The notes under the pieces are model-generated. The model did not search any database. It was not told where the DNA came from and saw nothing but the letters and a program-made list of their open reading frames with translations. A stretch of 64,000 nucleotides of DNA from a virus, in the IMG/VR virus record IMGVR_UViG_3300036766_000416, positions 1-64,000 of that record, one strand, 5' to 3'. The position numbers were made by a program, and so were the translations under genes. Shown here piece by piece: positions 10,998 to 28,547 of this stretch; position 1 is the stretch's first letter, and each line of letters begins with the position of its first letter.

Positions 10998-11450
10998 ATG
11001 ATTCGAGAAGTGATGAGTATGTGTTTGGCCCCTGTGGTGCTTGCGGGGTACCTCATGTCCACGGACGTCCACTTCCGCAAGGATGTGACGAATCCGCAGG
11101 GTGTCAATAACGCTGCGATGATCGAGGTCCAGACCTGTGAAACCGGATTAGGGTTTGACGCCAAAGCAGCCACTAATGGATTATACGGCGCGGGCCTTCA
11201 ATACGGATTCAGCAAGACCTTTGCCGACGACTATCGACTCACCTTCACACCGAAAGCGGGACTGAGTTATACGGACCATACGGTCTATGAGTTACCCCAG
11301 GACTTCCAATTCGGCATTGGAGCACAGGTTCTCTTTGGGTACAAACAGTTTCGAGTGGGTGCTGAGTTGTGGCACCTCAGTAATGCGGGGATGACCAGAC
11401 CGAACATCGGCCTCAATCTCCCGATTATTCAAGCCGGCTGGGCGTTCTGA
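10998..11450 (+). CDS. pagL: PagL-like outer-membrane lipid A 3-O-deacylase (acyloxyacyl hydrolase family)
   Basis: Signal-like N-terminus, alternating beta-strand pattern, EL..DFQFGIG, HLSNAG..PN.G.N motif, C-terminal Phe. Confidence 0.7.
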   Translation: MIREVMSMCLAPVVLAGYLMSTDVHFRKDVTNPQGVNNAAMIEVQTCETGLGFDAKAATNGLYGAGLQYGFSKTFADDYRLTFTPKAGLSYTDHTVYELPQDFQFGIGAQVLFGYKQFRVGAELWHLSNAGMTRPNIGLNLPIIQAGWAF

Positions 11451-12243: not shown

Positions 12244-12319
12244 GGGGCTTTAGCTCAATCAGGAGAGCGTCTGCATGGCATGCAGAAGGCAGCGAGGGCG
12301 GAACTCGCAAGCTCCACCA
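12244..12319 (+). tRNA. trnA: tRNA-Ala(GGC)
   Basis: Cloverleaf, loop ATGGCAT, G3-U70, CCA. Confidence 0.9.
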
Positions 12320-12327
12320 AATAGTAT

Positions 12328-12401
12328 ACGCATTTCGTACAACAGCAGTACCTCCGCCCGATTAGCGGATGATCACAGTGCAATTCTGTGAATGCGTACC
12401 A
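12328..12401 (+). tRNA. trnI: tRNA-Ile(GAT), atypical loop
   Basis: Cloverleaf with CCA; anticodon loop CCGATTA (C33, U37). Confidence 0.7.
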
Positions 12402-12414
12402 AATAGAGGTATCA

Positions 12415-12981
12415 ATGCCGTGGCATCATATTATTCCAAAGCATAAGTGGAAGTTCAGGTTTGGCGATCTGGGTGGCGTGAATGCTCATGATAATTTGGT
12501 CAATTTGACTACGGAACAACATTCCCAGGTTCATAGGATGATGGGGGAGTGTGGGTCGCAATATGATTATATTGCCTATTTGGCTATTTCTCGTCAGATC
12601 GGGAAGGAAGAAATTCAAAAGCGAATATCTTCTCATGCGTCCTCTGTTGCCAATGCTGGAAATAAATACGCACTGGGAACTAAACGAACGGAAGAACAGA
12701 AGAATAGGATGGTAGAGTTGGCAAGAGGCCGAAGGCAGACTGGGAAGCAGAAATTAGAATCCGCTAAACGCATGATAGGAAATAAATACTCCCTCAATAA
12801 GAAGAACGGTTTGGGGTATAAACACACCGAGAAATATAAGAAAGAGGCTTCTGAAAGACTGATCGGTAATACAAATGCTTTAGGGGCTAAACATACCGAT
12901 GAAATGAATCGTCTCAAATCAGAAAGATTGATCGGAAAGAAACGCGGCCCATACCGTAGGATACATATACCTGTGGTGTAA
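12415..12981 (+). CDS. HNH homing endonuclease, family copy 1
   Basis: HHIIP...DNLVNLTTEQH...H, NUMOD3-like K-H-T repeats. Confidence 0.8.
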   Translation: MPWHHIIPKHKWKFRFGDLGGVNAHDNLVNLTTEQHSQVHRMMGECGSQYDYIAYLAISRQIGKEEIQKRISSHASSVANAGNKYALGTKRTEEQKNRMVELARGRRQTGKQKLESAKRMIGNKYSLNKKNGLGYKHTEKYKKEASERLIGNTNALGAKHTDEMNRLKSERLIGKKRGPYRRIHIPVV

Positions 12982-13040
12982 TAGCAACATATTCGTCTCC
13001 AAAACGAATGATCGGGGTGCAATTCCTCGTAGGTATGCCA
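12967..13040 (+). tRNA. trnW: tRNA-Trp(CCA)
   Basis: Loop CTCCAAA, CCA end. Confidence 0.9.
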
Positions 13041-13063
13041 TGTGCCTTACAAAGGAAGATATT

Positions 13064-13591
13064 ATGAGCGCATTCACATTAGTTCTGAATCACAGTTATG
13101 AACCCCTCCAGGTGGTTGGGTGGCAGCGAGCCGTGACCCTGTTGTTTCAGGGTAAGGCTGAAGTGATTGAGGAACACAATGAGGAGATCCACTCGATTTC
13201 CTTTAGCATGAAGATTCCTTCTGTGTTGCGTATGTTGAGTATGGTGCGCCTGAAGCGTAAGGTGCCTGTCAAGTTTACGCGACTGAACATCTTCACCCGT
13301 GATGGTTGGAAGTGTCAGTATTGTGGTGAAAAGTTCCCTAGTGAGAAATTGACGTTCGACCATGTGGTACCTGTGTCTCAGGGTGGCAAAAAACAATGGG
13401 AAAATATCGTGACCGCGTGTGTGGAGTGTAATTCGCACAAGGAAGGGCGCACGCCTCAGCAAGCTGGCATGAAGTTGCTCAAGAAGCCTAAACAGCCAAT
13501 CTGGGCGCAAGTAGTCACCGTGACCGTAGGGTTGCGAACGACACCAGATAGTTGGCGCGATTATTTATACTGGACTTGCGAGCTTGAGTGA
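13064..13591 (+). CDS. McrA-like HNH endonuclease
   Basis: LVLNHSYEPL, RDGWKCQYCG, LTFDHVVPVSQGG, NIVTACVECN. Confidence 0.9.
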   Translation: MSAFTLVLNHSYEPLQVVGWQRAVTLLFQGKAEVIEEHNEEIHSISFSMKIPSVLRMLSMVRLKRKVPVKFTRLNIFTRDGWKCQYCGEKFPSEKLTFDHVVPVSQGGKKQWENIVTACVECNSHKEGRTPQQAGMKLLKKPKQPIWAQVVTVTVGLRTTPDSWRDYLYWTCELE

Positions 13592-13634
13592 GTTGATATG
13601 ACCAGGGCATGGAAGGGAATACAGAAGAAAAAAC

Positions 13635-13708
13635 GCCGGAATAGTGTAATGGAAACATCATACACTTGTAACGTATGGATTCGGGTTCGATTCCCGATTT
13701 CGGCTCCA
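13635..13708 (+). tRNA. trnT: tRNA-Thr(TGT)
   Basis: Loop CTTGTAA, TTCGATT, CCA. Confidence 0.9.
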
Positions 13709-13785
13709 TAACAGTCCGCAGATGGGGGTAGCGGGATAAGAAATAATCCCCCTTAATTTCCTCAGAGAAAAACTGAGGATCGAAT

Positions 13786-13860
13786 GTGACCGTAGCACAA
13801 GCAGTAGTGCGCTGGTTTGTGGCACCAGCTAAGTGGGTGCAAGTCCCACCGGTCACCCCA
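13786..13860 (+). tRNA. trnH: tRNA-His(GTG)
   Basis: Loop TTGTGGC, C73, CCA. Confidence 0.9.
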
Positions 13861-13947
13861 AAGCCAATCGAGAAGGTTGGCACGAAGCATGATAGCATCC
13901 ACCTTAGACGTGGACTCTGAGCAAGGGTGAAAGTGCTATCGAAATAT

Positions 13948-14023
13948 GGGCCCTTAGTTCATTCAGGAGAACGTCGCACTTGCACTGCGAAGGTGGTCGG
14001 AGCAAAGCCGACAGGGTCCACCA
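13948..14023 (+). tRNA. trnA: tRNA-Ala(TGC)
   Basis: Loop CTTGCAC, G3-U70, CCA. Confidence 0.9.
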
Positions 14024-14094
14024 AATGGCGACTCGCCGCCCATAAGTGGTGCGCTACACATTGGTAGTGCTTAAAGAGTCGGTTGAAAATAATC

Positions 14095-14169
14095 GGGCCC
14101 TAGGTGTTGACAGGAGCACGCCTGCCTCGCACGTAGGAAGGGTCGGGGCAGTTCCGACAGGGTCCACCA
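14095..14169 (+). tRNA. trnA: tRNA-Ala(CGC)
   Basis: Loop CTCGCAC, G3-U70, CCA. Confidence 0.9.
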
Positions 14170-14175
14170 TAAGAA

Positions 14176-14253
14176 CAGGGTGTAGGAGAATCTGGTTACT
14201 CTACTCGCTTTGGAAGCGAGTGATTGTGGGTTCAAATCCCACCGCCCTGACCA
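14176..14253 (+). tRNA. trnP: tRNA-Pro(TGG)
   Basis: Loop TTTGGAA, CCA. Confidence 0.9.
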
Positions 14254-14257
14254 TGAC

Positions 14258-14332
14258 GCTCCCATAGACTACTGGCTAGGTCGCTTGCCTTTCAAGCAGG
14301 AAGAGAGAGATCGATACTCTCTGGGAGCACCA
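14258..14332 (+). tRNA. trnE: tRNA-Glu(TTC)
   Basis: Loop CTTTCAA, CCA. Confidence 0.9.
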
Positions 14333-14337
14333 CGAAC

Positions 14338-14415
14338 GCCATTGTGATGGGAAATGGCATACCTAGTGTGTCGAGAACGCACTGAATGGGAGTTCGAGTC
14401 TCCCCAATGGCACCA
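14338..14415 (+). tRNA. trnL: tRNA-Leu(GAG), short variable arm
   Basis: Loop TCGAGAA, Leu-type D loop, CCA. Confidence 0.85.
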
Positions 14416-14424
14416 TAGTATATT

Positions 14425-14781
14425 ATGTGTGAATCAGAGATTGAACAGATTGACCGGGGCTCAGAGAGAGCCAAGCGAATAATCGCCGAGGTGATTCAAA
14501 CAATCACCTACAAGCCTGGGTACACGTTCACCTGGGATCAGTGTGATGATGGAAGGTTTTTATTCTACCTTCATACTCCGGCGATACAAGACGCGAAGCA
14601 TGTTGATAGGAAATTTACGATCAGACGGTTCGAGTATTTCCTCATAGAGTCGTGTCAGACACAAGCCGATGTTCGTCAGTGTTTTATTGATTTGATTTTG
14701 GGGTGGGAAAAACACGAATTGTATGAGTGGTTGAAGTTTGATGGTAAACAGTTCAAGGACCCACACATAGAAGAATTATAG
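14425..14781 (+). CDS. Hypothetical protein in tRNA array
   Basis: 118-codon ORF, HELYEWLKFDGKQFKDPH C-terminus. Confidence 0.6.
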   Translation: MCESEIEQIDRGSERAKRIIAEVIQTITYKPGYTFTWDQCDDGRFLFYLHTPAIQDAKHVDRKFTIRRFEYFLIESCQTQADVRQCFIDLILGWEKHELYEWLKFDGKQFKDPHIEEL

Positions 14782-14853
14782 CGGGGTAGAGAAGAGGCCC
14801 ATCTCGTCAGGCTCATAACCTGGAGACCGCTGGTTCAAATCCAGCCCCCGCGA
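14780..14853 (+). tRNA. trnfM: Initiator-like tRNA-Met(CAT), no encoded CCA
   Basis: Loop CTCATAA, 1:72 mismatch, fMet-like acceptor GCGGGG. Confidence 0.8.
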
Positions 14854-14902
14854 CTTCCCTCTTGAGAGATAGAGGGAGTTCAATACCTCGGTGTTGAACT
14901 AT

Positions 14903-14910
14903 TATAAATA
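14903..14910 (+). promoter_or_regulatory. T4-type late promoter
   Basis: TATAAATA upstream of GIY-YIG gene. Confidence 0.7.
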
Positions 14911-14931
14911 GTGCATGGAGGGAGACTAACT

Positions 14932-15555
14932 ATGCACTATCTTGTATATTTGATTACGAATCTTGTCAATGGTAAACATTACATTGGATGCCACAAGACT
15001 AAAAATAAAGATGACGGCTACATGGGATCAGGTAAGTATTTGAAGAATGCTCAAAAGAAATATGGTCTAGAGATTTTCAAAAAAGACATTCTCTTTGAAG
15101 CATCTTCTTCCGAGGAGATGTTTGCAAAAGAAAAAGAATTGGTGATTTTGGGACCCCAGAGTTATAATCTTAATGAGGGTGGTCAAGGCGGATTCGATCA
15201 TATCAACAGAAACAGGACACCTGAGGAATGGCGTAGGCTTCATAGTTTGGGCGGAAAAGCAGCAAGACCTTTTTTGGGTAAAAGGCATACCCCCGAAACT
15301 ATAGAAATATGCAGACAAAAATCGAAAGATGCTTGGTCCAACGGATTGATGATAAATGGATTTACTGGAAAGCATCATACCAATGAATCCAAGGCAAAGA
15401 TCGCCGCAAGCAATTCCAAGACACACAAGGGGACAGGGAATCCGAATTTTGGTAAATGTTGGATTACGAATCTTCTTACTAAAGAAAATAGGTTGATTGA
15501 AAAGATTTCCGATATTCCAGATGGATGGGTAAGAGGACGAAGAATGGCTCATTGA
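14932..15555 (+). CDS. Seg-like GIY-YIG homing endonuclease with NUMOD3 repeats
   Basis: YLVYLITNLVNGKHYIG, YMGSG, YNL, GKHHT repeats. Confidence 0.85.
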   Translation: MHYLVYLITNLVNGKHYIGCHKTKNKDDGYMGSGKYLKNAQKKYGLEIFKKDILFEASSSEEMFAKEKELVILGPQSYNLNEGGQGGFDHINRNRTPEEWRRLHSLGGKAARPFLGKRHTPETIEICRQKSKDAWSNGLMINGFTGKHHTNESKAKIAASNSKTHKGTGNPNFGKCWITNLLTKENRLIEKISDIPDGWVRGRRMAH

Positions 15556-15623
15556 CTGAAGGAAGTTTCAGACTTCTCTCATAAGGAAGATTGAGGTTGG
15601 TGCAAGTCCAACATGAGCCACCA
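15546..15623 (+). tRNA. trnM: tRNA-Met(CAT) (elongator, or Ile2 if lysidinated)
   Basis: Loop CTCATAA, CCA. Confidence 0.8.
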
Positions 15624-15630
15624 ATAGAAC

Positions 15631-15708
15631 GCCGTTGTGACGGGAATTGGCATACCTACTTGGCTTAGAACCAAGTGTTTAGGAGTTCGACTCTCCTCAA
15701 CGGCACCA
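15631..15708 (+). tRNA. trnL: tRNA-Leu(TAG), short variable arm
   Basis: Loop CTTAGAA, CCA. Confidence 0.9.
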
Positions 15709-15794
15709 AAAATTATGCTAGGACCAACAATTGGTGAGACAGCGTTGGTTGCGAAGGAAGATGTAGTTACCAATCTTCCCCTAGTAGATTATAC

Positions 15795-15884
15795 GCTCCT
15801 GCGCCTTGATAGGCAGAGTGGCCTTATAAGCCAGTCGCTCTAGATGAGAGCCTTGACTGAGTTTGATTCTCAGCAGGAGTACCA
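15795..15884 (+). tRNA. Non-canonical tRNA with TAT anticodon and long variable arm
   Basis: 7-bp acceptor plus ACCA, 4-bp D stem with TGAT loop, loop CTTATAA, V-arm hairpin GCTCT-AGATG-AGAGC. Confidence 0.7.
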
Positions 15885-15890
15885 AAATAT

Positions 15891-15974
15891 GGGTGTGGAG
15901 CCTAACATGGGTGAAGGGGCCGGCTGTAACCCGGTCTAGCCATCAACAAGGTTCGATTCCTTGCACACCCACCA
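15891..15974 (+). tRNA. trnY: tRNA-Tyr(GTA)
   Basis: Loop CTGTAAC, extended V region, CCA. Confidence 0.9.
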
Positions 15975-15991
15975 TGTTGACAGGAGACTTG

Positions 15992-16129
15992 ATGAAAGTT
16001 TATCGAAGCAAACGGCGCTCTTGTCCGATGTGTAAACCGAACAAGATGGGTATTGAGCCCCGTTGGACACCAAAAGAGTTAGACAAGATTCGAAGGATGG
16101 AAAAGGAAGCGAGAGAAGAAAAGGAATAA
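15992..16129 (+). CDS. Small basic CxxC protein (45 aa)
   Basis: AGGAG SD, KRRSCPMCKPNKMG. Confidence 0.6.
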   Translation: MKVYRSKRRSCPMCKPNKMGIEPRWTPKELDKIRRMEKEAREEKE

Positions 16130-16130
16130 G

Positions 16131-16206
16131 GCACTCGGAGTCATTTGGCATAGACACTTCCCTGTCGAGGAAGCCCAAGCGAGTTCGATTCTCGTCGAGT
16201 GCGCCA
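16131..16206 (+). tRNA. trnD: tRNA-Asp(GTC)
   Basis: Loop CTGTCGA, CCA. Confidence 0.9.
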
Positions 16207-16215
16207 TAACTTATT

Positions 16216-16602
16216 ATGTTAAAAAGACAAATCAATACGAATATGAAGGGGAATGTTGGAGTAGGATCGGCTATTCAATATTTCACTTCTCAGGGGTGGG
16301 TTGTTGCTCTACCTATCAATGATAGTCAGCCGTATGATTTGATCGTCGATATAGATGGTACTTTGAAGAGGGTTCAGGTTAAAACAACGACAAGTAATGA
16401 TGGAGTTTCTTGGGAGGTTGGGCTAAGGATTTCTTCCACAAACACCAAGAGAAACAAGAGCAAGTTGTTTGATGGGTCTTTAGTTGATTTGTTATTTATT
16501 TTAACAGAAGATGGTTCGAGGTGGTTGATTCCAACGGAAAAAATACAAGGAAGTAGCACGATAAGTGTTGGTGGAAAATTATATCAGGAATTCAAGATTT
16601 GA
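16216..16602 (+). CDS. PD-(D/E)XK endonuclease, I-Ssp6803I-like family
   Basis: KGNVG...LP..D.QPYDLIVD...RVQVKT motif. Confidence 0.8.
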   Translation: MLKRQINTNMKGNVGVGSAIQYFTSQGWVVALPINDSQPYDLIVDIDGTLKRVQVKTTTSNDGVSWEVGLRISSTNTKRNKSKLFDGSLVDLLFILTEDGSRWLIPTEKIQGSSTISVGGKLYQEFKI

Positions 16603-16603
16603 C

Positions 16604-16678
16604 GTCGCCGTGACTGAATAGCGAAGTAGCTGGCTGCAAACCAGTTCCATGCAGGTGCAATTCCTGTCGGCGACTCCA
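16604..16678 (+). tRNA. trnC: tRNA-Cys(GCA)
   Basis: Loop CTGCAAA, U73, CCA. Confidence 0.9.
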
Positions 16679-16692
16679 TAAAGAGGTGTTGA

Positions 16693-16818
16693 ATGTCTGG
16701 CACCGAAAAGAGAAACGACATGCCGCACATCCCTGTCAATTGGGACGGCACCCATGAAGACGAAGTGCTTCATGACGGAGATTTTGAGAGTGAATGGAAG
16801 GTGGACAGTGCAGGGTAA
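16693..16818 (+). CDS. Small acidic ORF (41 aa)
   Basis: GAGGTG SD; own translation MSGTEKRNDMPHIPVNWDG...; stop lies in tRNA-Ser. Confidence 0.4.
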   Translation: MSGTEKRNDMPHIPVNWDGTHEDEVLHDGDFESEWKVDSAG

Positions 16819-16882
16819 CTGGACCGATTGCTAATCGGATCGAGGGTAACACCTTGGGGTTCGAGTCCTCCGCCTTCCGCCA
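16796..16882 (+). tRNA. trnS: tRNA-Ser(GCT)
   Basis: Loop TTGCTAA, long V arm, G73, CCA. Confidence 0.9.
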
Positions 16883-16891
16883 TGAGTGTTT

Positions 16892-16976
16892 GGAGAGGTA
16901 ACCAGTTAGGATGCTGGAACCGCCTCGAAAGCGGATTGACCGAAAGGTTGGGTTTCGATTACTCACCTCTCCGCCA
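16892..16976 (+). tRNA. trnS: tRNA-Ser(CGA)
   Basis: Loop CTCGAAA, long V arm, CCA. Confidence 0.9.
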
Positions 16977-16984
16977 TAATAAAT

Positions 16985-17069
16985 GGAGGGTAAACAGTAC
17001 AGGGTAGCTGGCCCGTCTGGAAAGCGGTGCGAACGAAAGTTTGTGTTTCGAGTACACTGCCCTCCGCCA
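16985..17069 (+). tRNA. trnS: tRNA-Ser(GGA)
   Basis: Loop CTGGAAA, long V arm, CCA. Confidence 0.9.
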
Positions 17070-17173
17070 TAAAGGAATTTGTGCAGAATTGGAAAGTGTT
17101 ATTGATGTTTTTGGAGCCGCTGTCGCAATGGGTATAGCGATTGCGTTGACCCAGATACTACAGATGCCATAAT

Positions 17174-17263
17174 GGAGAAATAACCAGGCAAGCGCACTGG
17201 GACTGTTTTGAACACAGATCGACGGTGAAAGCCGTTGGGGAGCATCTCCTCATTTCTCCGCCA
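17174..17263 (+). tRNA. trnS: tRNA-Ser(TGA)
   Basis: Loop TTTGAAC, long V arm, CCA. Confidence 0.85.
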
Positions 17264-17282
17264 TGTCAGTCAACAATATAAC

Positions 17283-17619
17283 GGGGGTGAGTTAGTCTCG
17301 ACTGAGACCACAGACAAAGAAACGAACATGCCGAGCACCAGGCGCTCGTAAAAACTTGGAAAACCAGAATTCTCGAACAAGAATTCGCAATGGCAGCTTA
17401 ATCAGTTGCCCGTTGAACCACCGATGCCTATGAGTGGGGAAACGCAATTATAGGTTAGCGGTGAATGCTATGGAGATCGAGGCTTCACAGGCGAAATTAT
17501 CGGCTCAACACTCAAGTCAGTGTCACTCTTGACTTTGAGATCACAATGAGTGACTAGCATGGACATTCGGCTTTGAAAGTATCCCAGGACCGGAGTTGCA
17601 ATACTCCGCACCTCCACCA
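17283..17619 (+). ncRNA. ssrA: tmRNA
   Basis: GGGGGTG/CACCTCC-ACCA acceptor with G3-U70, TCGAC and GGAC flanks, internal ORF ending GCA ATG GCA GCT TAA. Confidence 0.9.
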
Positions 17620-17637
17620 ATAGAATAGTATATAAGA

Positions 17638-18174
17638 ATGTGGCATCATGTGATTCCTAGACACGAATGGAGAAAACGATTTGGAAATTTGAATGGATTC
17701 AACCGTCTAGATAATCTTGTTGAATTGACCACAGAGCAGCATGCCCAGGTACATGAATTACTTTTTGAGTTGAATGGAAACCAATTTGACAAAATTGCTT
17801 TTCGGGCGATACGAGGAATGATAGGAAAAGAAGAGGCAAATAAGCAAGCATCTTCTGTTGCCAATAAAGGAAATAAATATAACATCGGTCATAAGAATGC
17901 GTTGGGGTCAAAGCGTGATGAAGAGTGGAAAGTAAAGTATGGAAAGAAAGTTGTTCCGCGTATTCCTAAACCTTATGTGAATCCATTTCAGGGAAAGACT
18001 CATACAGCAGAAGCAAGAGCAAAGACTGGTGCCGCGAATGCAAAAACTCATAGGGGATCGGGCAATCCGAATTATGGAAAGCGGTCTTCAGTGGAAAAGA
18101 GGCAGAAAATAAGTGAATCTTTGAAAGAGTATTTCAGAAAAAAGAAATTATCGCCTCCTGGCCGAGCAGCTTAG
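17638..18174 (+). CDS. HNH homing endonuclease, family copy 2
   Basis: HHVIPRHEW...DNLVELTTEQH...H, NUMOD3-like repeats. Confidence 0.8.
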   Translation: MWHHVIPRHEWRKRFGNLNGFNRLDNLVELTTEQHAQVHELLFELNGNQFDKIAFRAIRGMIGKEEANKQASSVANKGNKYNIGHKNALGSKRDEEWKVKYGKKVVPRIPKPYVNPFQGKTHTAEARAKTGAANAKTHRGSGNPNYGKRSSVEKRQKISESLKEYFRKKKLSPPGRAA

Positions 18175-18226
18175 GCATCCGGCTTTGACCCGGATTAGGT
18201 TGGTGCAACTCCAACGGAGGCCTCCA
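18152..18226 (+). tRNA. trnQ: tRNA-Gln(TTG)
   Basis: Loop CTTTGAC, CCA. Confidence 0.85.
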
Positions 18227-18234
18227 TGAGTTAT

Positions 18235-18308
18235 AGGGATGTGGCAGATCGGCGATGCACTGGTCTCTGACACCAGCCAGAAAGGTTCAACTCCTTTCAT
18301 CCCTGCCA
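18235..18308 (+). tRNA. trnQ: tRNA-Gln(CTG)
   Basis: Loop CTCTGAC, CCA. Confidence 0.9.
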
Positions 18309-18326
18309 TGAGTTTGTTGAGTAGAT

Positions 18327-18401
18327 TGGCGAGTACCCAAGTGGTATGGGACCTGGCCGTTAACCAGGAAGTCGCACGTTCGATCCGTGCCTCGCCAGCC
18401 A
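18327..18401 (+). tRNA. trnN: tRNA-Asn(GTT)
   Basis: Loop CCGTTAA, CCA. Confidence 0.9.
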
Positions 18402-18405
18402 AAAC

Positions 18406-18480
18406 CGAGCATTGGTGTAACGAGTAACACAACAGTTTGAAGAACTGTCCTACGGGGTGCAAGTCCTCGATGCTCGACCA
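18406..18480 (+). tRNA. trnF: tRNA-Phe(GAA)
   Basis: Loop TTGAAGA, CCA. Confidence 0.9.
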
Positions 18481-18487
18481 AAGATAT

Positions 18488-18562
18488 GCGGTGGTAGCCT
18501 AGTAGTCAGGCACCTCGTTGCCAACGAGGATCACGCCGGGGCAGATCCGGTCCACCGCTCCA
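18488..18562 (+). tRNA. trnG: tRNA-Gly(GCC)
   Basis: Loop TTGCCAA, U73, CCA. Confidence 0.9.
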
Positions 18563-18577
18563 TGTGCAGTAAAATAT

Positions 18578-18651
18578 GCGGTCATAGTATAGAAGAAATA
18601 CGGCTGGCTTCCAACCAGCAATCCCGGTGGCAGAATCCGGTGACCGCTCCA
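18578..18651 (+). tRNA. trnG: tRNA-Gly(TCC)
   Basis: Loop CTTCCAA, U73, CCA. Confidence 0.9.
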
Positions 18652-18656
18652 ATAAT

Positions 18657-18734
18657 CAGGGCGTAGGAGAATCTGGTTACTCTACTCGCTTCGGAGGCGA
18701 GTGATTGGTGGTTCAAATCCACCCGCCCTGACCA
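18657..18734 (+). tRNA. trnP: tRNA-Pro(CGG)
   Basis: Loop TTCGGAG, near-duplicate of Pro(TGG), CCA. Confidence 0.9.
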
Positions 18735-18738
18735 ACGT

Positions 18739-18813
18739 GCCCTCTAGGTGTAGATAGCGACACGCGACTTTCGTAAAGTTGAGAGATCGGCGCACGTCCG
18801 ATAGAGGGCTCCA
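18739..18813 (+). tRNA. trnT: tRNA-Thr(CGT)
   Basis: Loop TTCGTAA, CCA. Confidence 0.85.
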
Positions 18814-18817
18814 TTAT

Positions 18818-18894
18818 GCGCCTGTAGACCAGCGGCAGGAGTCGGCTGACTTAAAACCAGCACAGGGTGGGTTCGAATCCCACCAGGCGCACCA
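18818..18894 (+). tRNA. trnL: tRNA-Leu(TAA), short variable arm
   Basis: Loop CTTAAAA, CCA. Confidence 0.85.
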
Positions 18895-18907
18895 ACAAGA
18901 GGTACTG

Positions 18908-19156
18908 TTGCGAACGAAGAAGGATAAAGCGTATTCTTTTCGACATACGCAAGAACGATTGAAGGAACGGTACCAACTGGATATCACTCGACCAGAGTAT
19001 GATACGATTTGTCAGAACGCAAAAGCACTTAGGGGAGAATTGGAACGTAATGGAAAGCAGATGCAGAAAATTGTAAAAGCCCGATTCAAGGGAAAGTATG
19101 TCACCTTTGTCTATGGTCTTGGGTGTGATTATGTGACCACTGTATTGCCGGCGTGA
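18908..19156 (+). CDS. Small basic protein in tRNA array
   Basis: GAGGT SD with TTG start; H..ER..ERY and C-terminal VTTVLP. Confidence 0.55.
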   Translation: MRTKKDKAYSFRHTQERLKERYQLDITRPEYDTICQNAKALRGELERNGKQMQKIVKARFKGKYVTFVYGLGCDYVTTVLPA

Positions 19157-19221
19157 TGCAATGCAGACATAACTACCTCAAAAGTAGTTTCCTGGGAGTG
19201 CAAGTCTCCCCGCCGGCACCA
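19147..19221 (+). tRNA. trnL: tRNA-Leu(CAA), short variable arm
   Basis: Loop CTCAAAA, CCA. Confidence 0.85.
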
Positions 19222-19244
19222 ATTAGGTTGTGCGTAGAAAATAT

Positions 19245-19318
19245 GCTACGATATTTCAATAGGAGAAAACCGCATTGGTAATGCGGAAACCCGGGGGCAG
19301 TACCCGGTCGTAGCTCCA
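19245..19318 (+). tRNA. trnT: tRNA-Thr(GGT)
   Basis: Loop TTGGTAA, CCA. Confidence 0.9.
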
Positions 19319-19323
19319 GTTAT

Positions 19324-19398
19324 GCGTCCTGGGCAGGTTAGATATGCGCCTCCCCTACAAGGAGAACCAAGAAGGTGCAATTCCTTCAGGACGCACCA
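19324..19398 (+). tRNA. trnV: tRNA-Val(TAC)
   Basis: Loop CCTACAA, CCA. Confidence 0.8.
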
Positions 19399-19404
19399 AA
19401 ATAT

Positions 19405-19481
19405 GTCCTTGTAGTGAAGCCTGAACATCACACTGGCCTGCGAAGCCGGAGACGTGGGTTTGAATCCCACCGAGGACACCA
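19405..19481 (+). tRNA. trnR: tRNA-Arg(GCG)
   Basis: Loop CTGCGAA, CCA. Confidence 0.85.
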
Positions 19482-19485
19482 TAAC

Positions 19486-19560
19486 GGTCTGCAAGCTTTA
19501 GCAGATGAGCACCGGTCTCTTAAACCGGGGAACGGGGTGCAATTCCCTGGCGGACCACCA
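19486..19560 (+). tRNA. trnK: tRNA-Lys(CTT)
   Basis: Loop CTCTTAA, CCA. Confidence 0.9.
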
Positions 19561-19632
19561 ATTACGGCTCGCCTGCCATGTGTAGGAAATGAGCATACGG
19601 GGCCCTCAAGTTGGGGGTCCTAGCAAAAATAC

Positions 19633-19706
19633 GCTCCCATAGATTATCAGTAGATCGCTAGATTCTCAATCTAGAGAGCCGAGGGCAGCACTCGGTGGGA
19701 GCACCA
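19633..19706 (+). tRNA. trnE: tRNA-Glu(CTC)
   Basis: Loop TTCTCAA, CCA. Confidence 0.9.
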
Positions 19707-19711
19707 AATAC

Positions 19712-19787
19712 GTCCCCGTGGACCAACTGAAAGGTCACCTCTCTTCTAAAGAGGACTATGCGAGTTTGAGTCTCGCCGGGGACACCA
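19712..19787 (+). tRNA. trnR: tRNA-Arg(TCT)
   Basis: Loop CTTCTAA, CCA. Confidence 0.9.
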
Positions 19788-19791
19788 TGAC

Positions 19792-19868
19792 GCCGCTGTA
19801 GATCAACGGACGATCACCCCTCTCCTAAAGGGGTTATTCTGTGGGTTCGACTCCCATCAGCGGCACCA
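19792..19868 (+). tRNA. trnR: tRNA-Arg(CCT)
   Basis: Loop CTCCTAA, CCA. Confidence 0.9.
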
Positions 19869-19872
19869 ATAT

Positions 19873-19951
19873 CTCCCTGTGATGGCAATTGGACGCCGAC
19901 TTCGCTTCGAACGAAGGCTTGATGCAGGTTCGAATCCTGTCAGGGAGACCA
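19873..19951 (+). tRNA. trnR: tRNA-Arg(TCG)
   Basis: Loop CTTCGAA, CCA. Confidence 0.9.
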
Positions 19952-20049
19952 ATATCATGGAGGCACGATGAGATTCGCTGACAGTAAAGAAATCGTCGCT
20001 AATGAGACTGTTGAGCCGATAGACGAACAGTTTCAGAAATCGAAAATAC

Positions 20050-20123
20050 CGACCCTTAGCTCAAAAGAAGAGCACCACTTTGACACGGTGGGGACAGTGG
20101 AGCATTACCACTAGGGTTGACCA
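20050..20123 (+). tRNA. trnV: tRNA-Val(GAC)
   Basis: Loop TTGACAC, CCA. Confidence 0.85.
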
Positions 20124-20126
20124 TAC

Positions 20127-20201
20127 GGGCCGCAAAATTTAGTAGATGATTACCAGACTTTTAATCTGGGGAACCGGGTGCAATTCCTGGGCGGCCCACC
20201 A
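20127..20201 (+). tRNA. trnK: tRNA-Lys(TTT)
   Basis: Loop CTTTTAA, CCA. Confidence 0.9.
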
Positions 20202-20611: not shown

Positions 20612-20838
20612 TGTTAGATAATAATGACGGCACACCCGAAGCTCGGTTCGAAGGTCTCATGACCGAACTTGGTAAGAGATTCCCACACCCCCACCCCTTC
20701 GATTCCTCTGTGATGCTCGAACTTTATTACATCGAAGAAATCGACAAGGTGATAAGGGATGCGAAGGAACTGAACGCGGCAAAGAGGACCATCGTCAACG
20801 TATTCACTAGAGGAGCCAACAGAGGAGCCAACAAGTGA
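20611..20838 (+). CDS. Hypothetical protein
   Basis: TAATG coupling to upstream gene and overlap with ligase start. Confidence 0.5.
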   Translation: MLDNNDGTPEARFEGLMTELGKRFPHPHPFDSSVMLELYYIEEIDKVIRDAKELNAAKRTIVNVFTRGANRGANK

Positions 20839-21983
20839 CCAAAACATTTCCTACATTATACGGGGTTTCCTCGAAGGGTGTCACGAAAGTCTGGAACATC
20901 CAGGTCACGGCTGGGTCGGATGTCTGTAAAGGTGATGCGGTGATTCTTGTTGAGCACGGACAGCTTGATGGGAAGATCCAATCTTCTCCTGAGATTATCC
21001 GCGAGGGTAAGAACGTTGGCAAAGCGAACGAGACAAGCCCCTATGAACAGGCTGTTCTTGAGGCCGAATCCAAGTGGAAGAAGAAGCACGACAGTAACTA
21101 TTCTGAACACCTCCCGAAAATTGACGCGGGGATGGGCAAGATCACACTCAAGATTCTCCCGATGCTCGCACAGAAGTTCAAAGAGCGCAAACAGCACCTC
21201 GTGTGGCCCGCCTATATCCAACCGAAACTCAATGGAGTTCGGTGTCTCGTGGAACGCAAAGGCAACAAAATTTTCTTTTGGTCTCGCAAAGCGAAACTCT
21301 ACAAGAACTTCAATCTCTACATGGAGCAGGATTTTTTGAGTTTTATGAAAGACGGTGAGATTCTTGATGGTGAGATGTATAACCATGGTGATATCACGTT
21401 TCAGGAATTGATGTCGCTGATCAAGGACGAAAAGACTCCAGACCTTGAGGGATTGAAAAAGTATGTGAAGTTCTGGTGCTATGATCGACCGACGACCGAG
21501 AAACTGGGATTTGAAGAACGGTATATCAAGTATCGCTATGATATTCCGAATGGCCTGAACTATCTCCGCTTGGTCGAGACAATCAAGTTGCCTTCTGACT
21601 CGCATCTTGCCAAAATTCACGCCGAATATACGCAGGCAGGTTACGAAGGTTCTATCATCCGCTCAGGTGGAAACGAACCCTACAATTTCCAGTATCGTGA
21701 CAACCAACTTCAAAAGCACAAGGACTTCCTGGATGACGAATTCGAGATCGTGGGTTGTGACCAAGGTGTTGGAAAGGACGAGGGTAAAGCGATTTTCGTC
21801 TGCAAGATCAAAGGTGGCCTAGAATTCAGTGTTCGCTGTAAAGGGGCCGATGCGGTCCGACAGGAACAATGGACGAACCGTAAGAAGTATATGGGTAAGG
21901 AATTGACTGTGCGCTACCAGACACTCAGCGACGACGGCATCCCGATTTTCCCTGTGGGTATCATTGTTCGTGACTACGAATGA
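20835..21983 (+). CDS. lig: ATP-dependent DNA ligase
   Basis: Motif I QPKLNGVRC, LDGEMY, GYEGSIIR, OB-fold GKELTVRYQTLSDDGIPIFP. Confidence 0.93.
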   Translation: MTKTFPTLYGVSSKGVTKVWNIQVTAGSDVCKGDAVILVEHGQLDGKIQSSPEIIREGKNVGKANETSPYEQAVLEAESKWKKKHDSNYSEHLPKIDAGMGKITLKILPMLAQKFKERKQHLVWPAYIQPKLNGVRCLVERKGNKIFFWSRKAKLYKNFNLYMEQDFLSFMKDGEILDGEMYNHGDITFQELMSLIKDEKTPDLEGLKKYVKFWCYDRPTTEKLGFEERYIKYRYDIPNGLNYLRLVETIKLPSDSHLAKIHAEYTQAGYEGSIIRSGGNEPYNFQYRDNQLQKHKDFLDDEFEIVGCDQGVGKDEGKAIFVCKIKGGLEFSVRCKGADAVRQEQWTNRKKYMGKELTVRYQTLSDDGIPIFPVGIIVRDYE

Positions 21984-22593: not shown

Positions 22594-22891
22594 AATGTTT
22601 CAGGAATACGAGCCGATTCCCTTTCGCGTTTGGCACGAAGAGAACCGCGAGGACCTGGAAAAAGAATTCACGGTGTTGGATTTTGTTGCTGATGACCTGG
22701 ACTGTCCGAAGTGTGATGGATTTGGTGTTCTGGAGTGTGATTTGGACCATGATCATGAATGCTCTGACTGTGAAGGAACCGGAAAGAATGACCAGAGTTA
22801 TGATGAAGCCTTGAGCGACTATTCACACAACCAATATCACGAGCAAGTTAAGAAAGACAAAGAAAAATTGAAGGTGTATTGTGCCTCATAA
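22580..22891 (+). CDS. DnaJ-type zinc-finger-like protein
   Basis: CPKCDGFG...CSDCEGTG. Confidence 0.6.
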   Translation: MSSLKMFQEYEPIPFRVWHEENREDLEKEFTVLDFVADDLDCPKCDGFGVLECDLDHDHECSDCEGTGKNDQSYDEALSDYSHNQYHEQVKKDKEKLKVYCAS

Positions 22892-27295: not shown

Positions 27296-27300
27296 TCAAC

Positions 27301-28509: not shown

Positions 28510-28547
28510 TTGACAATACCTGCCAAGTATGACATAATTAGATCATG
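28510..28547 (+). promoter_or_regulatory. Early promoter, short copy of repeated cassette
   Basis: TTGACA-17nt-CATAAT-TAGATCATG. Confidence 0.8.

What the first reader, a model, noticed from the sequence alone, without database searches (positions are those of the whole stretch)
12244..20201. Concerted re-coding of the tRNA elbow: A18/G55 and A19-U56 covariation
Seen: 21 tRNAs have G at position 55 of the T-loop (TGCAATT, TGCAAGT, GGCAG.., AGCA..., CGCACGT) instead of TTC. In 19 of them the D-loop GG is clearly AG (e.g. Trp, His, Cys, Phe, both Gly, three Ala, both Lys, both Val, Glu-CTC, Thr-CGT/GGT, Ser-TGA); Met and Leu-CAA are ambiguous. The 17 tRNAs with U55 keep GG. Three (Arg-GCG, Arg-TCT, TAT tRNA) have D-loop GA with T-loop TTT, i.e. 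A19-U56. The tmRNA follows the same rule (TTAGTC with TGCAAT). Established: G18-psi55 and G19-C56 form the elbow read by RNase P, the ribosome, TruB/TrmA and T-boxes. Inference: a family-wide alternative elbow that keeps the L-shape but escapes a host factor recognising the canonical elbow (nuclease, sensor or modification dependency). Isolated precedents in other phage tRNAs may exist, so novelty needs checking.
Basis: partly seen in the sequence, partly recalled or inferred. Interest (0 to 1): 0.85.

Follow-up and report, generated by a model that had tools for sequence, protein, structure and literature searches.

The report
Phage tRNAs with a rewired elbow
About half of the 41 transfer-RNA genes (and the tmRNA) of this uncultured T4-like phage build the corner of the L-shaped molecule from a different, mutually matching set of bases (A18 with G55 instead of G18 with U55). 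They look like working tRNAs that lack the "universal" U54-U55-C56 site used by tRNA-modifying enzymes and by at least one published anti-phage nuclease.

Summary
The array at 12244-20201 holds 41 tRNA genes and a tmRNA. Twenty-one tRNAs have G55-C56 T-loops and an AG (17 with no GG at all) where G18-G19 should be. Seventeen keep U55-C56 with GG. Three have G18-A19 with U55-U56 (Fisher p = 2e-7).

In 120 tRNAs from this phage and six related records, A18 and G55 co-occur 69 times and A18 never occurs without G55. All 15 tRNAs without C56 carry the Watson-Crick partner at position 19 (A:U, U:A, C:G). Positions 54/58 co-vary too. Twenty of 39 anticodon families switch elbow type between relatives, and the tmRNA follows the same rule.

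The G55 loops (UGCAA-UU, CGCAA, GGCAG) match the T-loop class of riboswitches and rRNA, where an adenine intercalates and bonds to G at loop position 2. This is therefore an isosteric second way to build the elbow.

It is not unique to this phage. It recurs in many unrelated uncultured phages, in accessory arrays that are almost entirely G55, in a few CPR bacterial tRNAs and rarely in cultured Pseudomonas phages. Several cultured phage arrays and the chromosomal tRNAs of a candidate host are canonical.

I found no paper describing it. This scan has flagged the same design before in other genomes. The selective reason is unproven; escape from T-loop-cutting nucleases is plausible.

The parts
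12244..12319 (+). tRNA-Ala(GGC), G55 class: D-loop AATCAGGA, T-loop GGCGGAA; G3:U70 kept
12328..12401 (+). tRNA-Ile(GAT), G55 class: AACAGCA / TGCAATT
12967..13040 (+). tRNA-Trp(CCA), G55 class: AATAGCA / TGCAATT
13635..13708 (+). tRNA-Thr(TGT), canonical: AATGGAA / TTCGATT
13786..13860 (+). tRNA-His(GTG), G55 class: AAGCAGTA / TGCAAGT
13948..14023 (+). tRNA-Ala(TGC), G55 class: ATTCAGGA / AGCAAAG (A54-A58)
14095..14169 (+). tRNA-Ala(CGC), G55 class: TGACAGGA / GGCAGTT (G54-G58); missed by ARAGORN and Rfam
14176..14253 (+). tRNA-Pro(TGG), canonical: AATCTGGTTA / TTCAAAT
14258..14332 (+). tRNA-Glu(TTC), U55 with A54 and A60: ACTGGCTA / ATCGATA
14338..14415 (+). tRNA-Leu(GAG), canonical elbow (TGG / TTCGAGT); short variable loop; C33
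14780..14853 (+). tRNA-Met(CAT), canonical: AGAGGCCCA / TTCAAAT; the only tRNA without an encoded CCA
15546..15623 (+). tRNA(CAT), G55 class: AGGAAGTT / TGCAAGT (position 18 ambiguous)
15631..15708 (+). tRNA-Leu(TAG), canonical elbow (TTGG / TTCGACT); short variable loop
15795..15884 (+). tRNA-like with anticodon TAT: 4-nt D-loop TGAT (G18-A19), T-loop TTTGATT (U55-U56), long variable arm
   Evidence: fold z = -4.5
15891..15974 (+). tRNA-Tyr(GTA), canonical: GGG / TTCGATT
16131..16206 (+). tRNA-Asp(GTC), canonical: TTTGGCAT / TTCGATT
16604..16678 (+). tRNA-Cys(GCA), G55 class: AATAGCG / TGCAATT
16796..16882 (+). tRNA-Ser(GCT), canonical: GGG / TTCGAGT
16892..16976 (+). tRNA-Ser(CGA), canonical: TTAGGATG / TTCGATT
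16985..17069 (+). tRNA-Ser(GGA), canonical: GGG / TTCGAGT (hand-parsed)
17174..17263 (+). tRNA-Ser(TGA), G55 class: GCAAGCGCA / AGCATCT (A54-U58)
17283..17619 (+). tmRNA: 5' GGGGGTG-AGTTAG-TCTCGAC (AG, no GG); T-arm CGGAG-TTGCAATA-CTCCG (G55-type loop)
18152..18226 (+). tRNA-Gln(TTG), G55 class: AGCAGCTT / TGCAACT
18235..18308 (+). tRNA-Gln(CTG), canonical: ATCGGCG / TTCAACT
18327..18401 (+). tRNA-Asn(GTT), canonical: AGTGGTA / TTCGATC
18406..18480 (+). tRNA-Phe(GAA), G55 class: AACGAGTA / TGCAAGT
18488..18562 (+). tRNA-Gly(GCC), G55 class: AGTAGTC / GGCAGAT
18578..18651 (+). tRNA-Gly(TCC), G55 class: AGAAGAA / GGCAGAA
18657..18734 (+). tRNA-Pro(CGG), canonical: AATCTGGTTA / TTCAAAT
18739..18813 (+). 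tRNA-Thr(CGT), G55 class: AGATAGCG / CGCACGT (C54-C58); missed by ARAGORN and Rfam
18818..18894 (+). tRNA-Leu(TAA), canonical elbow: GCGGCAGG / TTCGAAT; short variable loop
19147..19221 (+). tRNA-Leu(CAA), G55 class: AATGCAG / TGCAAGT (position 18 ambiguous); short variable loop
19245..19318 (+). tRNA-Thr(GGT), G55 class: AATAGGA / GGCAGTA
19324..19398 (+). tRNA-Val(TAC), G55 class: GTTAGAT / TGCAATT; C33; ARAGORN miscalls it Cys(ACA)
19405..19481 (+). tRNA-Arg(GCG), A19:U56: AGCCTGAACA / TTTGAAT
19486..19560 (+). tRNA-Lys(CTT), G55 class: TAGCAGAT / TGCAATT
19633..19706 (+). tRNA-Glu(CTC), G55 class: ATCAGTA / GGCAGCA
19712..19787 (+). tRNA-Arg(TCT), A19:U56: AACTGAAA / TTTGAGT
19792..19868 (+). 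tRNA-Arg(CCT), canonical: AACGGAC / TTCGACT
19873..19951 (+). tRNA-Arg(TCG), canonical: AATTGGAC / TTCGAAT
20050..20123 (+). tRNA-Val(GAC), G55 class: AAAAGAA / AGCATTA (A54-U58)
20127..20201 (+). tRNA-Lys(TTT), G55 class: TAGTAGAT / TGCAATT
20835..21983 (+). Context: ATP-dependent ligase just downstream of the array
   Evidence: PF01068, PF14743
22881..24062 (+). Context: RtcB RNA ligase (a tRNA-repair enzyme), used here to fetch related phages
   Evidence: PF01139, E = 2.5e-126

Best explanation
These are working phage tRNAs (and a tmRNA) in which the D-loop/T-loop corner is built in a second, isosteric way.

In the canonical elbow, G18 slides between bases 57 and 58 and bonds to U/Psi55, G19 pairs with C56, and U54 pairs with A58. 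In the rewired class the T-loop has the sequence of the generic T-loop motif of riboswitches and rRNA: (U/C)-G-N-R-A, most often UGCAA-UU, or the rRNA-like GGCAG. The D-loop supplies an adenine (A18), which by analogy intercalates and hydrogen-bonds to the sugar edge of G55. G19:C56 is kept, or is replaced by another Watson-Crick pair.

Shown: the covariation, its recurrence, the intact cloverleafs and identity elements, and the sequence match to the known T-loop class.

Inferred: the three-dimensional geometry and the function in translation.

Consequence that follows from chemistry: such tRNAs cannot carry Psi55, and those with G/A/C54 cannot carry m5U54. They no longer display the U54-U55-C56 motif.

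Most likely benefit (inference): insensitivity to factors that read that motif. These include T-loop-cutting defence or toxin nucleases such as the type III CRISPR-associated Schlafen nuclease Cash, and the host modification enzymes TruB and TrmA. The phage would then bring a partly nuclease-proof decoding set. The RtcB and ligase genes next to the array fit a lineage that lives under tRNA-cleavage pressure.
For: Covariation:
- Window Fisher p = 2.2e-7. 35 of 36 parsed tRNAs obey the rule, against 18.7 +/- 2.8 when T-loops are shuffled.
- In an unbiased MAFFT alignment of 120 tRNAs from the clade, the A18 x G55 table is 69/0/5/46 (p = 6e-28).
- 15 of 15 tRNAs without C56 have the Watson-Crick partner at position 19.
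- Pairs 54/58, 18/55 and 19/56 rank among the top 21 of 2,926 column pairs by mutual information, next to the stem pairs.

Functionality:
- Helices are 92-99% paired and every helix pair shows double changes.
- G3:U70 is present in all three Ala tRNAs and CCA is encoded in 40 of 41.

Repeated in-place switching:
- 20 of 39 anticodon families change elbow state among seven related records.
- Gly-GCC reads GAACGGCTA/TTCGACC in one relative and GAATAGCTA/CGCAAGT in another.
- Arg-GCG reads ..CTGAACA/TTTGAAT in one and ..CTGCAAA/TTGAAAT in another.

tmRNA: four of five relatives have a G55 loop with AG. The one with TTCAATT has GG.

Structural precedent (bioRxiv 10.1101/2022.12.26.521914):
- Riboswitch T-loops are YGNRA, mostly UGNAA, with (UGHAA)UU favoured.
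- The intercalating base is almost always A, with two hydrogen bonds to the sugar edge of G at position 2.
- tRNA is described there as the U-at-position-2 exception, and GGAAG as an rRNA T-loop.
- A57 dominates in the G55 class (65 A, 17 G) and G57 in the U55 class.

Single changes are not tolerated: in yeast SUP4, G18, U55, G19, C56, U54 and A58 accept no single mutation (PMC4117946).

Nuclease precedent:
- CbCash cuts 5' of U55 at the UUC motif, and a single U54 or U55 substitution abolishes cleavage (PMC13462974).
- CdiA-CT E479 cuts the T-loop between T and Psi (PMC9086364).

Not a host trait: 24 of 24 dispersed tRNAs of an Opitutus MAG are canonical, while the accessory array binned with it is 20 of 20 G55.

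Not general to phage arrays: ValKK3 25/25, Comrade 18/18 and Sixama 24/24 are canonical.
Against: - No structure, expression, aminoacylation or cleavage data exist for any of these tRNAs.
- Sixteen of 41 tRNAs in this phage still carry intact UUC, so protection would be incomplete. Pro, Asp, Asn and Tyr have only canonical tRNAs.
- Elbow types flip in both directions between close relatives, which is also what near-neutral exchange between two equivalent designs would give.
- The host is unknown, and so is whether it has any T-loop nuclease.
- Some CPR bacteria use the same elbow in what look like their only tRNA-Cys and a CAU tRNA, so a phage-defence reason is not required for the design to exist.
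- The geometry of the G54-G58, A54-U58 and C54-C58 variants is not covered by the cited precedent.
Confidence: 0.6

Rival explanations
1. Near-neutral drift between two structurally equivalent elbows. Phage tRNAs are short-lived and free of the constraints that freeze the elbow in cells (modification enzymes, T-box leaders, long-term stability). Compensated double changes at 18/55, 19/56 and 54/58 would then simply accumulate, with no benefit of their own.
For: - Twenty of 39 anticodon families switch state among seven related records, in both directions.
- Canonical and rewired tRNAs are mixed within one array.
- Amino-acid identity sets no limit: in L160 all 20 tRNAs, of every class, are rewired.
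- The partners that read the elbow (RNase P, the L1 stalk, T-box) mainly stack on the flat 19-56 face (PMC4810234 and PMC3664808, listed).
Against: - Other phages with equally large arrays are fully canonical: 25/25, 24/24 and 18/18.
- Some arrays are converted almost completely: 20/20, 18/19 and 18/19.
- The tmRNA is converted as well.
- All the variable positions fall on the U54-U55-C56 motif and its partners.
- Uncompensated intermediates are almost absent, at most 5 of 120, so each switch has to cross a deleterious state, which argues for a pay-off.
Confidence: 0.25
2. Self/non-self marking for the phage's own benefit. The phage, or a partner element, destroys or disables host tRNAs through their canonical T-loop during takeover, and its own rewired tRNAs and tmRNA are spared.
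For: - The rewired set covers 15 amino acids plus the tmRNA.
- The logic is the same as for nuclease escape.
- Many ORFs around the array have no recognisable family.
Against: - No Schlafen-type domain is found in the genome.
- The nuclease-like ORFs inside the array look like homing endonucleases: HNH, GIY-YIG/NUMOD3 and PD-(D/E)XK.
- Sixteen of the phage's own tRNAs would be hit as well.
Confidence: 0.07
3. The G55 genes are decayed copies or decoys (tRNA-like RNAs that are not used for decoding).
For: ARAGORN misses 13 of the 21, and several score low or fall below threshold with the Rfam tRNA model.
Against: - Cloverleafs are intact and show compensatory changes.
- Anticodon loops are normal and identity elements are kept.
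- CCA is encoded.
- For 12 amino acids the rewired tRNAs are the only ones the phage has (Ala, Ile, Trp, His, Cys, Phe, Gly, Val, Lys among them).
- The same design is conserved across distant phages and appears in apparently sole-copy CPR tRNAs.
Confidence: 0.03

Closest known systems
Canonical bacterial and phage elongator tRNA elbow (G18-Psi55, G19-C56, T54-A58; Rfam RF00005)
   Same: Same cloverleaf, the same loop sizes (7-nt T-loop closed by G53-C61), the same place for the D-loop dinucleotide, C56 and R57 usually kept, and the 19-56 pair kept as Watson-Crick.
   Different: U55 becomes G and G18 becomes A in 21 of 41 tRNAs. Position 54 is often G, A or C, with a matching base at 58. The 19-56 pair is A:U in three tRNAs here, and U:A or C:G in relatives. 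Psi55 is impossible.
Generic T-loop / T-loop-receptor modules of FMN and cobalamin riboswitches, rRNA and RNase P (YGNRA loop plus an intercalating adenine; bioRxiv 10.1101/2022.12.26.521914)
   Same: Loop sequence (UGCAA)UU, or CGCAA, or rRNA-like GGNAG. There is a preference for A at loop position 4, and the partner loop donates an adenine.
   Different: There the receptor is a dedicated loop or internal loop of a large RNA. Here the receptor is the tRNA D-loop, and a neighbouring Watson-Crick pair (19-56) is retained. The cited work describes tRNA as always belonging to the other (U at position 2) class.
Phage tRNAs that evade anticodon nucleases through anticodon-loop changes (eLife 2023, PMC10264068; T5 tRNA-Lys against PARIS, PMC11464382)
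   Same: Phage-encoded tRNA sets whose deviations from host tRNAs sit at sites read by defence nucleases. Repair enzymes are encoded nearby.
   Different: Those changes are in the anticodon stem-loop and were tested experimentally. Here the change is in the elbow, needs two co-ordinated substitutions in different loops, and is untested.
Eukaryotic initiator tRNA-Met and tRNA-Ala(AGC) with A54-A58 and a purine at position 60 (PMC7566577)
   Same: A natural replacement of the U54-A58 T-loop pair. The phage Glu tRNAs (ATCGATA) have exactly A54, A58 and A60.
   Different: Those tRNAs keep U55 and G18. The phage G55 class also uses G-G, A-U and C-C at 54/58.
Animal mitochondrial tRNAs and tRNA-Pyl with non-canonical elbows
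   Same: They lack G18-G19 and the T-Psi-C sequence yet function.
   Different: Those have reduced or loosened elbows and variable loop sizes. Here the loop sizes are standard and the contacts are replaced one for one.

Membership tests
tRNA (Rfam RF00005) | Cloverleaf with a 7-bp acceptor stem, D, anticodon and T arms, and a 7-nt anticodon loop | tested here: met
   Own parser. Helices are 92-99% paired with double changes in every pair across 120 clade tRNAs. Twenty-nine reach the Rfam gathering score when the region is searched alone.
tRNA (Rfam RF00005) | Conserved G18-G19 and T54-Psi55-C56 elbow nucleotides | tested here: not met
   Twenty-one of 41 have A18/G55, 3 have A19/U56 and 1 has A54. 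They remain tRNAs by every other feature, so this concerns the conserved-nucleotide signature and not membership itself.
tRNA (Rfam RF00005) | Aminoacylation and use on the ribosome | not testable with these tools
   Only indirect evidence: G3:U70 in the three Ala tRNAs, plausible discriminator bases, encoded CCA, and a complete anticodon repertoire.
YGNRA T-loop with intercalating adenine (riboswitch/rRNA class) | Loop positions 1-5 read Y-G-N-R-A, with positions 1 and 5 able to pair | tested here: met
   TGCAA 11 times in the window. In the clade G55 class, 54/58 is U-A 35 times and C-A 5 times. GGCAG matches the rRNA GGAAG type named in the preprint. The A54-U58 and C54-C58 variants fall outside the described consensus.
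YGNRA T-loop with intercalating adenine (riboswitch/rRNA class) | The partner strand donates an adenine that intercalates between positions 4 and 5 and bonds to G2 | tested here: inconclusive
   Sequence covariation fits: A18 occurs with G55 69 times and never without it. The geometry cannot be tested without a structure.
Substrates of the T-loop nuclease CbCash (PMC13462974) | U54-U55-C56 motif in the T-loop; a single U54 or U55 change abolishes cleavage | tested here: not met
   Twenty-five of 41 tRNAs and the tmRNA lack the motif, while 16 keep it. Resistance itself was not tested.
Substrates of TruB (Psi55) and TrmA (m5U54) | U55, or U54 respectively, in a canonical T-loop | tested here: not met
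   G55 in 21 tRNAs, and a non-U54 in 11 of them plus Glu-TTC. The phage encodes no TruB.

The most novel reading that the evidence does not exclude
Phages and other mobile elements carry an orthogonal tRNA design. Its elbow is rebuilt on the riboswitch-type T-loop (A18 intercalating on G55, a free choice of Watson-Crick pair at 19-56, and alternative 54-58 pairs). It has been selected because it is invisible to T-loop-directed immune or toxin nucleases (Cash/Schlafen-type, CdiA-E479-type) and independent of host TruB and TrmA. On this reading the elbow, and not only the anticodon loop, is a front line of the tRNA arms race, and the supposedly universal Psi55 is dispensable for translation.
Probability: 0.35. 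Interest if true: 0.9.

Novelty: new variant of a known kind. Interest (0 to 1): 0.78.

Why it matters
[quoted passage not shown] Natural, apparently functional tRNA sets that replace them one for one would have several consequences.

- The invariance would reflect the partners that read the elbow (modification enzymes, nucleases), not a requirement of the fold or the ribosome.
- They provide a ready-made natural mutagenesis series (A:G, all four 19-56 pairs, five kinds of 54-58 pair) for studying how RNase P, the ribosome, EF-Tu, synthetases and T-loop nucleases read the elbow.
- They suggest a second route, besides anticodon-loop changes, by which phage tRNAs could escape tRNA-directed immunity.
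- They matter for annotation. ARAGORN missed 13 of the 21 rewired tRNAs here and mis-assigned one, so phage tRNA repertoires are under-counted.
- Such elbows could serve as orthogonal scaffolds in synthetic biology.

Tried and rejected
- Megablast and blastn of the array against GenBank phages. There were no close relatives, and only canonical tRNAs (Leu, Pro) found weak matches. Arrays L217 and L160 gave only short, mostly uninformative matches. The one I followed (Vibrio phage ValKK3) turned out fully canonical.
- A first rule for assigning position 19 (any Watson-Crick partner of 56 in the D-loop) was too loose, because GG always gives two candidates. I replaced it with fixed-column tests, a permutation test and the MAFFT columns.
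- A phage-encoded RNase P RNA as the reason for the tolerance. Relatives have one, but this complete genome has none, neither by covariance model at E <= 1 nor by conserved motifs.
- A phage-encoded Schlafen nuclease or TruB: none found.
- Pfam scans of 30 ORFs around the array found homing endonucleases, a ligase, RtcB, RNase H, ClpP, an HD hydrolase and a PagL-like protein, but nothing that reads tRNA elbows.
- Host's own tRNAs. The host is unknown. As a proxy I used the Opitutus MAG that carries an all-G55 array, and its chromosomal tRNAs are canonical.
- Nine literature searches for A18/G55, U55G/G18A, phage tRNA elbows, tRNA arrays and phage RNase P found no description of this design. 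The library does not hold most subscription-journal papers, so absence there is not proof.
- Decay or pseudogenes were rejected on the helix covariation and the conservation across distant phages.

Full report
**What is there**

The window is the first 64 kb of a complete 178,609-bp virus record with direct terminal repeats and 48% G+C. Earlier notes of this scan call it an uncultured T4-like phage; I did not test that myself. Between 12244 and 20201 on the plus strand lies a dense tRNA array, interrupted by small genes for homing-type endonucleases: HNH, GIY-YIG/NUMOD3 and PD-(D/E)XK. It is followed by an ATP-dependent ligase (20835-21983) and an RtcB RNA ligase (22881-24062).

ARAGORN reports 25 tRNAs. 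Rfam reports 24 at its gathering score on the whole window, and 29 plus a tmRNA when the region is searched alone. Both tools lean on the conserved T-loop, so I wrote a cloverleaf parser that ignores loop sequence and parsed the remaining type II tRNAs by hand.

- Twenty-one tRNAs have N54-G55-C56 T-loops: TGCAATT, TGCAAGT or TGCAACT 11 times, GGCAGnn 5 times, and GGCGGAA, AGCAAAG, AGCATTA, AGCATCT and CGCACGT once each.
- Seventeen have U55-C56.
- Three have U55-U56: Arg-GCG, Arg-TCT and a TAT tRNA-like gene with a 4-nt D-loop.

Every G55 tRNA has AG at the place of G18-G19, and 17 of the 21 have no GG in the D-loop at all. Every U55-C56 tRNA has GG (Fisher p = 2.2e-7). The three U56 tRNAs have GA, that is A19:U56.

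Of 36 machine-parsed tRNAs, 35 obey the rule "18:55 is G:U or A:G, and 19:56 is Watson-Crick". When T-loops are shuffled among tRNAs the figure is 18.7 +/- 2.8 (z = 5.9).

**Relatives turn the pattern into real covariation**

Using RtcB as bait I fetched 23 IMG/VR loci and extended the arrays of two long records. Seven related records together give 155 distinct tRNAs, of which 149 obey the rule (z = 13.9).

A plain MAFFT alignment of the 120 type I tRNAs (A1) puts positions 18-19 in fixed columns without any help from me. On those columns:

- A18 x G55 is 69/0/5/46 (p = 6e-28).
- All 15 tRNAs without C56 carry the complementary base at 19: 7 A:U, 7 U:A and 1 C:G.
- By mutual information, 54/58 (1.0 bit), 18/55 (0.82) and 19/56 (0.67) rank among the top 21 of 2,926 column pairs. 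Apart from one further T-loop pair (54/60), every other pair in that top set is a stem pair.

The pair-counting tool gives 94% Watson-Crick at 19-56 with 15 double changes. It gives 92-99% pairing in the four helices, with double changes in every one of their 21 pairs. That is the signature of RNAs under selection for the tRNA fold.

Twenty of 39 anticodon families show more than one elbow type among these few phages. Some switches are visibly in place:

- Gly-GCC reads GAACGGCTA/TTCGACC in L001 and GAATAGCTA/CGCAAGT in L024, with the same acceptor stem.
- Arg-GCG reads AGCCTGAACA/TTTGAAT here and AGCCTGCAAA/TTGAAAT in L024.

The tmRNA follows the rule as well. The copies in the window and L024 have a TGCAAT loop with AG and no GG. 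L012 and L004 have a G55 loop with AGG. The one relative with TTCAATT (L025) has GG.

**What the alternative elbow is**

Within the G55 class, positions 54/58 are U-A (35), G-G (29), A-U (9), C-A (5), A-A (2) and C-C (2). Position 57 is mostly A (65 of 82). In the U55 class 54/58 is U-A (65) or A-A (7), and 57 is mostly G.

These are the features of the generic T-loop motif outside tRNA. A study of FMN and cobalamin riboswitch T-loops (bioRxiv 10.1101/2022.12.26.521914) reports the following:

- The consensus is YGNRA, about 80% UGNAA, with (UGHAA)UU functionally favoured.
- The base that intercalates between loop positions 4 and 5 is almost exclusively adenine, making two hydrogen bonds to the sugar edge of the G at position 2.
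- GGAAG is an rRNA T-loop.
- tRNA is the class with U at position 2.

The phage loops (UGCAA)UU, CGCAA and GGCAG with A18 are therefore best read as that design moved into tRNA. A18 takes the place of G18 as the intercalator, G55 takes the place of U/Psi55 as its partner, and the neighbouring 19-56 Watson-Crick pair is kept. This is inference from sequence; no structure exists.

In a yeast suppressor tRNA, single changes at G18, U55, G19, C56, U54 or A58 are not tolerated (PMC4117946). This explains why only matched pairs are seen.

**How widespread it is**

In 40 of them the match lies in a proper cloverleaf. These loci hold 458 further distinct tRNAs, and 450 obey the rule (z = 22.8). Of 114 G55 tRNAs, 104 have AG and no GG. 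The share of rewired tRNAs per array runs from 1 in 25 to 18 in 19. The rich arrays share only homing-endonuclease-like proteins with this phage, so they are not close kin.

In 18 of them the match lies in a proper cloverleaf:

- Arrays that are almost wholly G55 sit on contigs binned with Verrucomicrobia MAGs: 20/20, 18/19, 12/14 and 13/16.
- Single tRNA-Cys and CAU tRNAs with AG/TGCAATT occur in Saccharibacteria, Parcubacteria and other MAGs.

In the Opitutus MAG that carries the 20/20 array, 24 of 24 dispersed chromosomal tRNAs are canonical. The rewired set is therefore accessory there, not the host's style.

Cultured phages with large arrays are canonical: Vibrio phage ValKK3 25/25, Streptomyces phage Comrade 18/18 and Gordonia phage Sixama 24/24. 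Cultured Pseudomonas phages show isolated cases:

- Ep020 has Pro(UGG) with AATAGTA/AGCGTAA, plus Ala and Cys with A19:U56.
- Its relative vB_PseuGesM_254 has the orthologous Cys with C19:G56, and GenBank annotates it as an ordinary tRNA.

**Why**

What follows directly from chemistry is that G55 cannot become pseudouridine and that G, A or C at 54 cannot become ribothymidine. In this phage 25 of 41 tRNAs and the tmRNA lack the U54-U55-C56 motif.

Two published enzymes cut exactly there:

- The type III CRISPR-associated Schlafen nuclease CbCash cleaves most E. coli tRNAs 5' of U55 at the UUC motif and is blocked by a single U54 or U55 substitution (PMC13462974). I reached this paper through my own search, after earlier notes of this scan mentioned "a published anti-phage nuclease".
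- The contact-dependent inhibition toxin CdiA-CT E479 cuts between T and Psi (PMC9086364).

Three things point to selection by something that reads the T-loop as such: the RtcB and ligase genes beside the array, the near-complete conversion of some arrays, and the conversion of the tmRNA. Against this, 16 tRNAs here remain canonical, elbow types flip both ways among relatives, and CPR bacteria use the design without any obvious phage context.

I therefore put the structural reading at about 0.85. The full statement, including the nuclease or modification-escape benefit, I put at about 0.6. Near-neutral exchange between equivalent designs is the main rival at 0.25.

The genome encodes no Schlafen domain, no TruB and no RNase P RNA. 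Its rewired precursors must therefore be handled by host RNase P.

**Novelty**

Nine full-text searches found no description of natural A18/G55 tRNAs, of 19-56 swaps in phage tRNAs, or of array-wide elbow rewiring. Reviews treat G18, U55 and C56 as universal (PMC7912444). Many subscription journals are not in the library, so this is not proof.

This scan has flagged the same design before in more than ten other genomes. My tests agree with those notes and add four things for this locus: the unbiased-alignment statistics, all four Watson-Crick pairs at 19-56, the tmRNA switch, and the match to the YGNRA T-loop class. I class it as a new variant of a known kind: a tRNA with an alternative elbow.

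Noticed in passing
L012:763-1048 (+) and L024:8996-9298 (+): Two related phage records carry a slimmed-down bacterial class A RNase P RNA (RF00010; 191 and 177 bits; about 290-300 nt, with P12 shortened and a 43-nt block deleted) inside the tRNA array. The window's own complete genome has none. Earlier scan notes report similar phage RNase P RNAs elsewhere, and I found no paper on them.
   Followed up: partly
window 14338-14415, 15631-15708, 18818-18894, 19147-19221: All four tRNAs with Leu anticodons lack the long variable arm (74-78 nt, type I-like). The same short Leu tRNAs occur in cultured phages (ValKK3, Sixama, Comrade), so this is a general phage feature.
   Followed up: partly
window 19324-19398 and 14338-14415: The anticodon loops CCTACAA (Val-UAC) and TCGAGAA (Leu-GAG) put C at position 33, where U is nearly universal. 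Relatives share this (L001, L004, L010, L024; L160 and L241 for Leu-GAG), while L025 has U33.
   Followed up: no
window 15795-15884: A tRNA-like gene with anticodon TAT, a 4-nt D-loop (TGAT), a 6-7-bp anticodon stem with a G-G mismatch and a 5-bp long variable arm. It folds well (z = -4.5), but neither ARAGORN nor Rfam finds it.
   Followed up: partly
window 14780-14853; 13786-13860: Met(CAT) at 14780 is the only tRNA of the 41 without an encoded CCA. The His tRNA has C73 but no encoded G-1 (the base before G1 is T).
   Followed up: no
window 12388-12981, 13040-13591, 14911-15555, 16216-16602, 17638-18174, 229-648: Homing-endonuclease-type genes are scattered through and near the array: HNH, GIY-YIG/SegE, NUMOD3 and PD-(D/E)XK PF11645. 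HNH and PD-(D/E)XK homologues (38-44% identity) also sit in unrelated G55-rich arrays (L030, L074, L080, L217).
   Followed up: partly
window 17590-17609: The tmRNA T-arm has an 8-nt loop (TTGCAATA) whose outer bases could pair, giving a 6-bp stem and a 6-nt TGCAAT loop. L024 and L004 share this form.
   Followed up: no
L160, L217, L198, L222, L235, L241 (GTDB MAG contigs): Accessory tRNA arrays in which nearly every tRNA has the A18/G55 elbow (20/20, 18/19, 12/14, 13/16), binned with Verrucomicrobia MAGs. The L217 Cys tRNA has the same T-arm as the window's. The Opitutus MAG's chromosomal tRNAs are canonical.
   Followed up: partly
L191, L197, L239, L242, L248 (CAT tRNA); L190, L213, L219, L232, L264 (Cys-GCA): Single tRNAs with AG/TGCAATT elbows in Saccharibacteria, Parcubacteria and other MAGs. 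They are possibly the sole copies of those tRNAs, so the design is not confined to phages.
   Followed up: partly
window 28545-29075, 27235-27873, 10998-11450: A RelA/SpoT-type HD hydrolase domain (PF13328), a ClpP protease and a PagL-like lipid A deacylase are encoded near the array.
   Followed up: no
window 12244-20201: Annotation bias: ARAGORN finds 8 of 21 rewired tRNAs against 17 of 20 others, and calls Val(TAC) at 19324 a Cys(ACA).
   Followed up: yes
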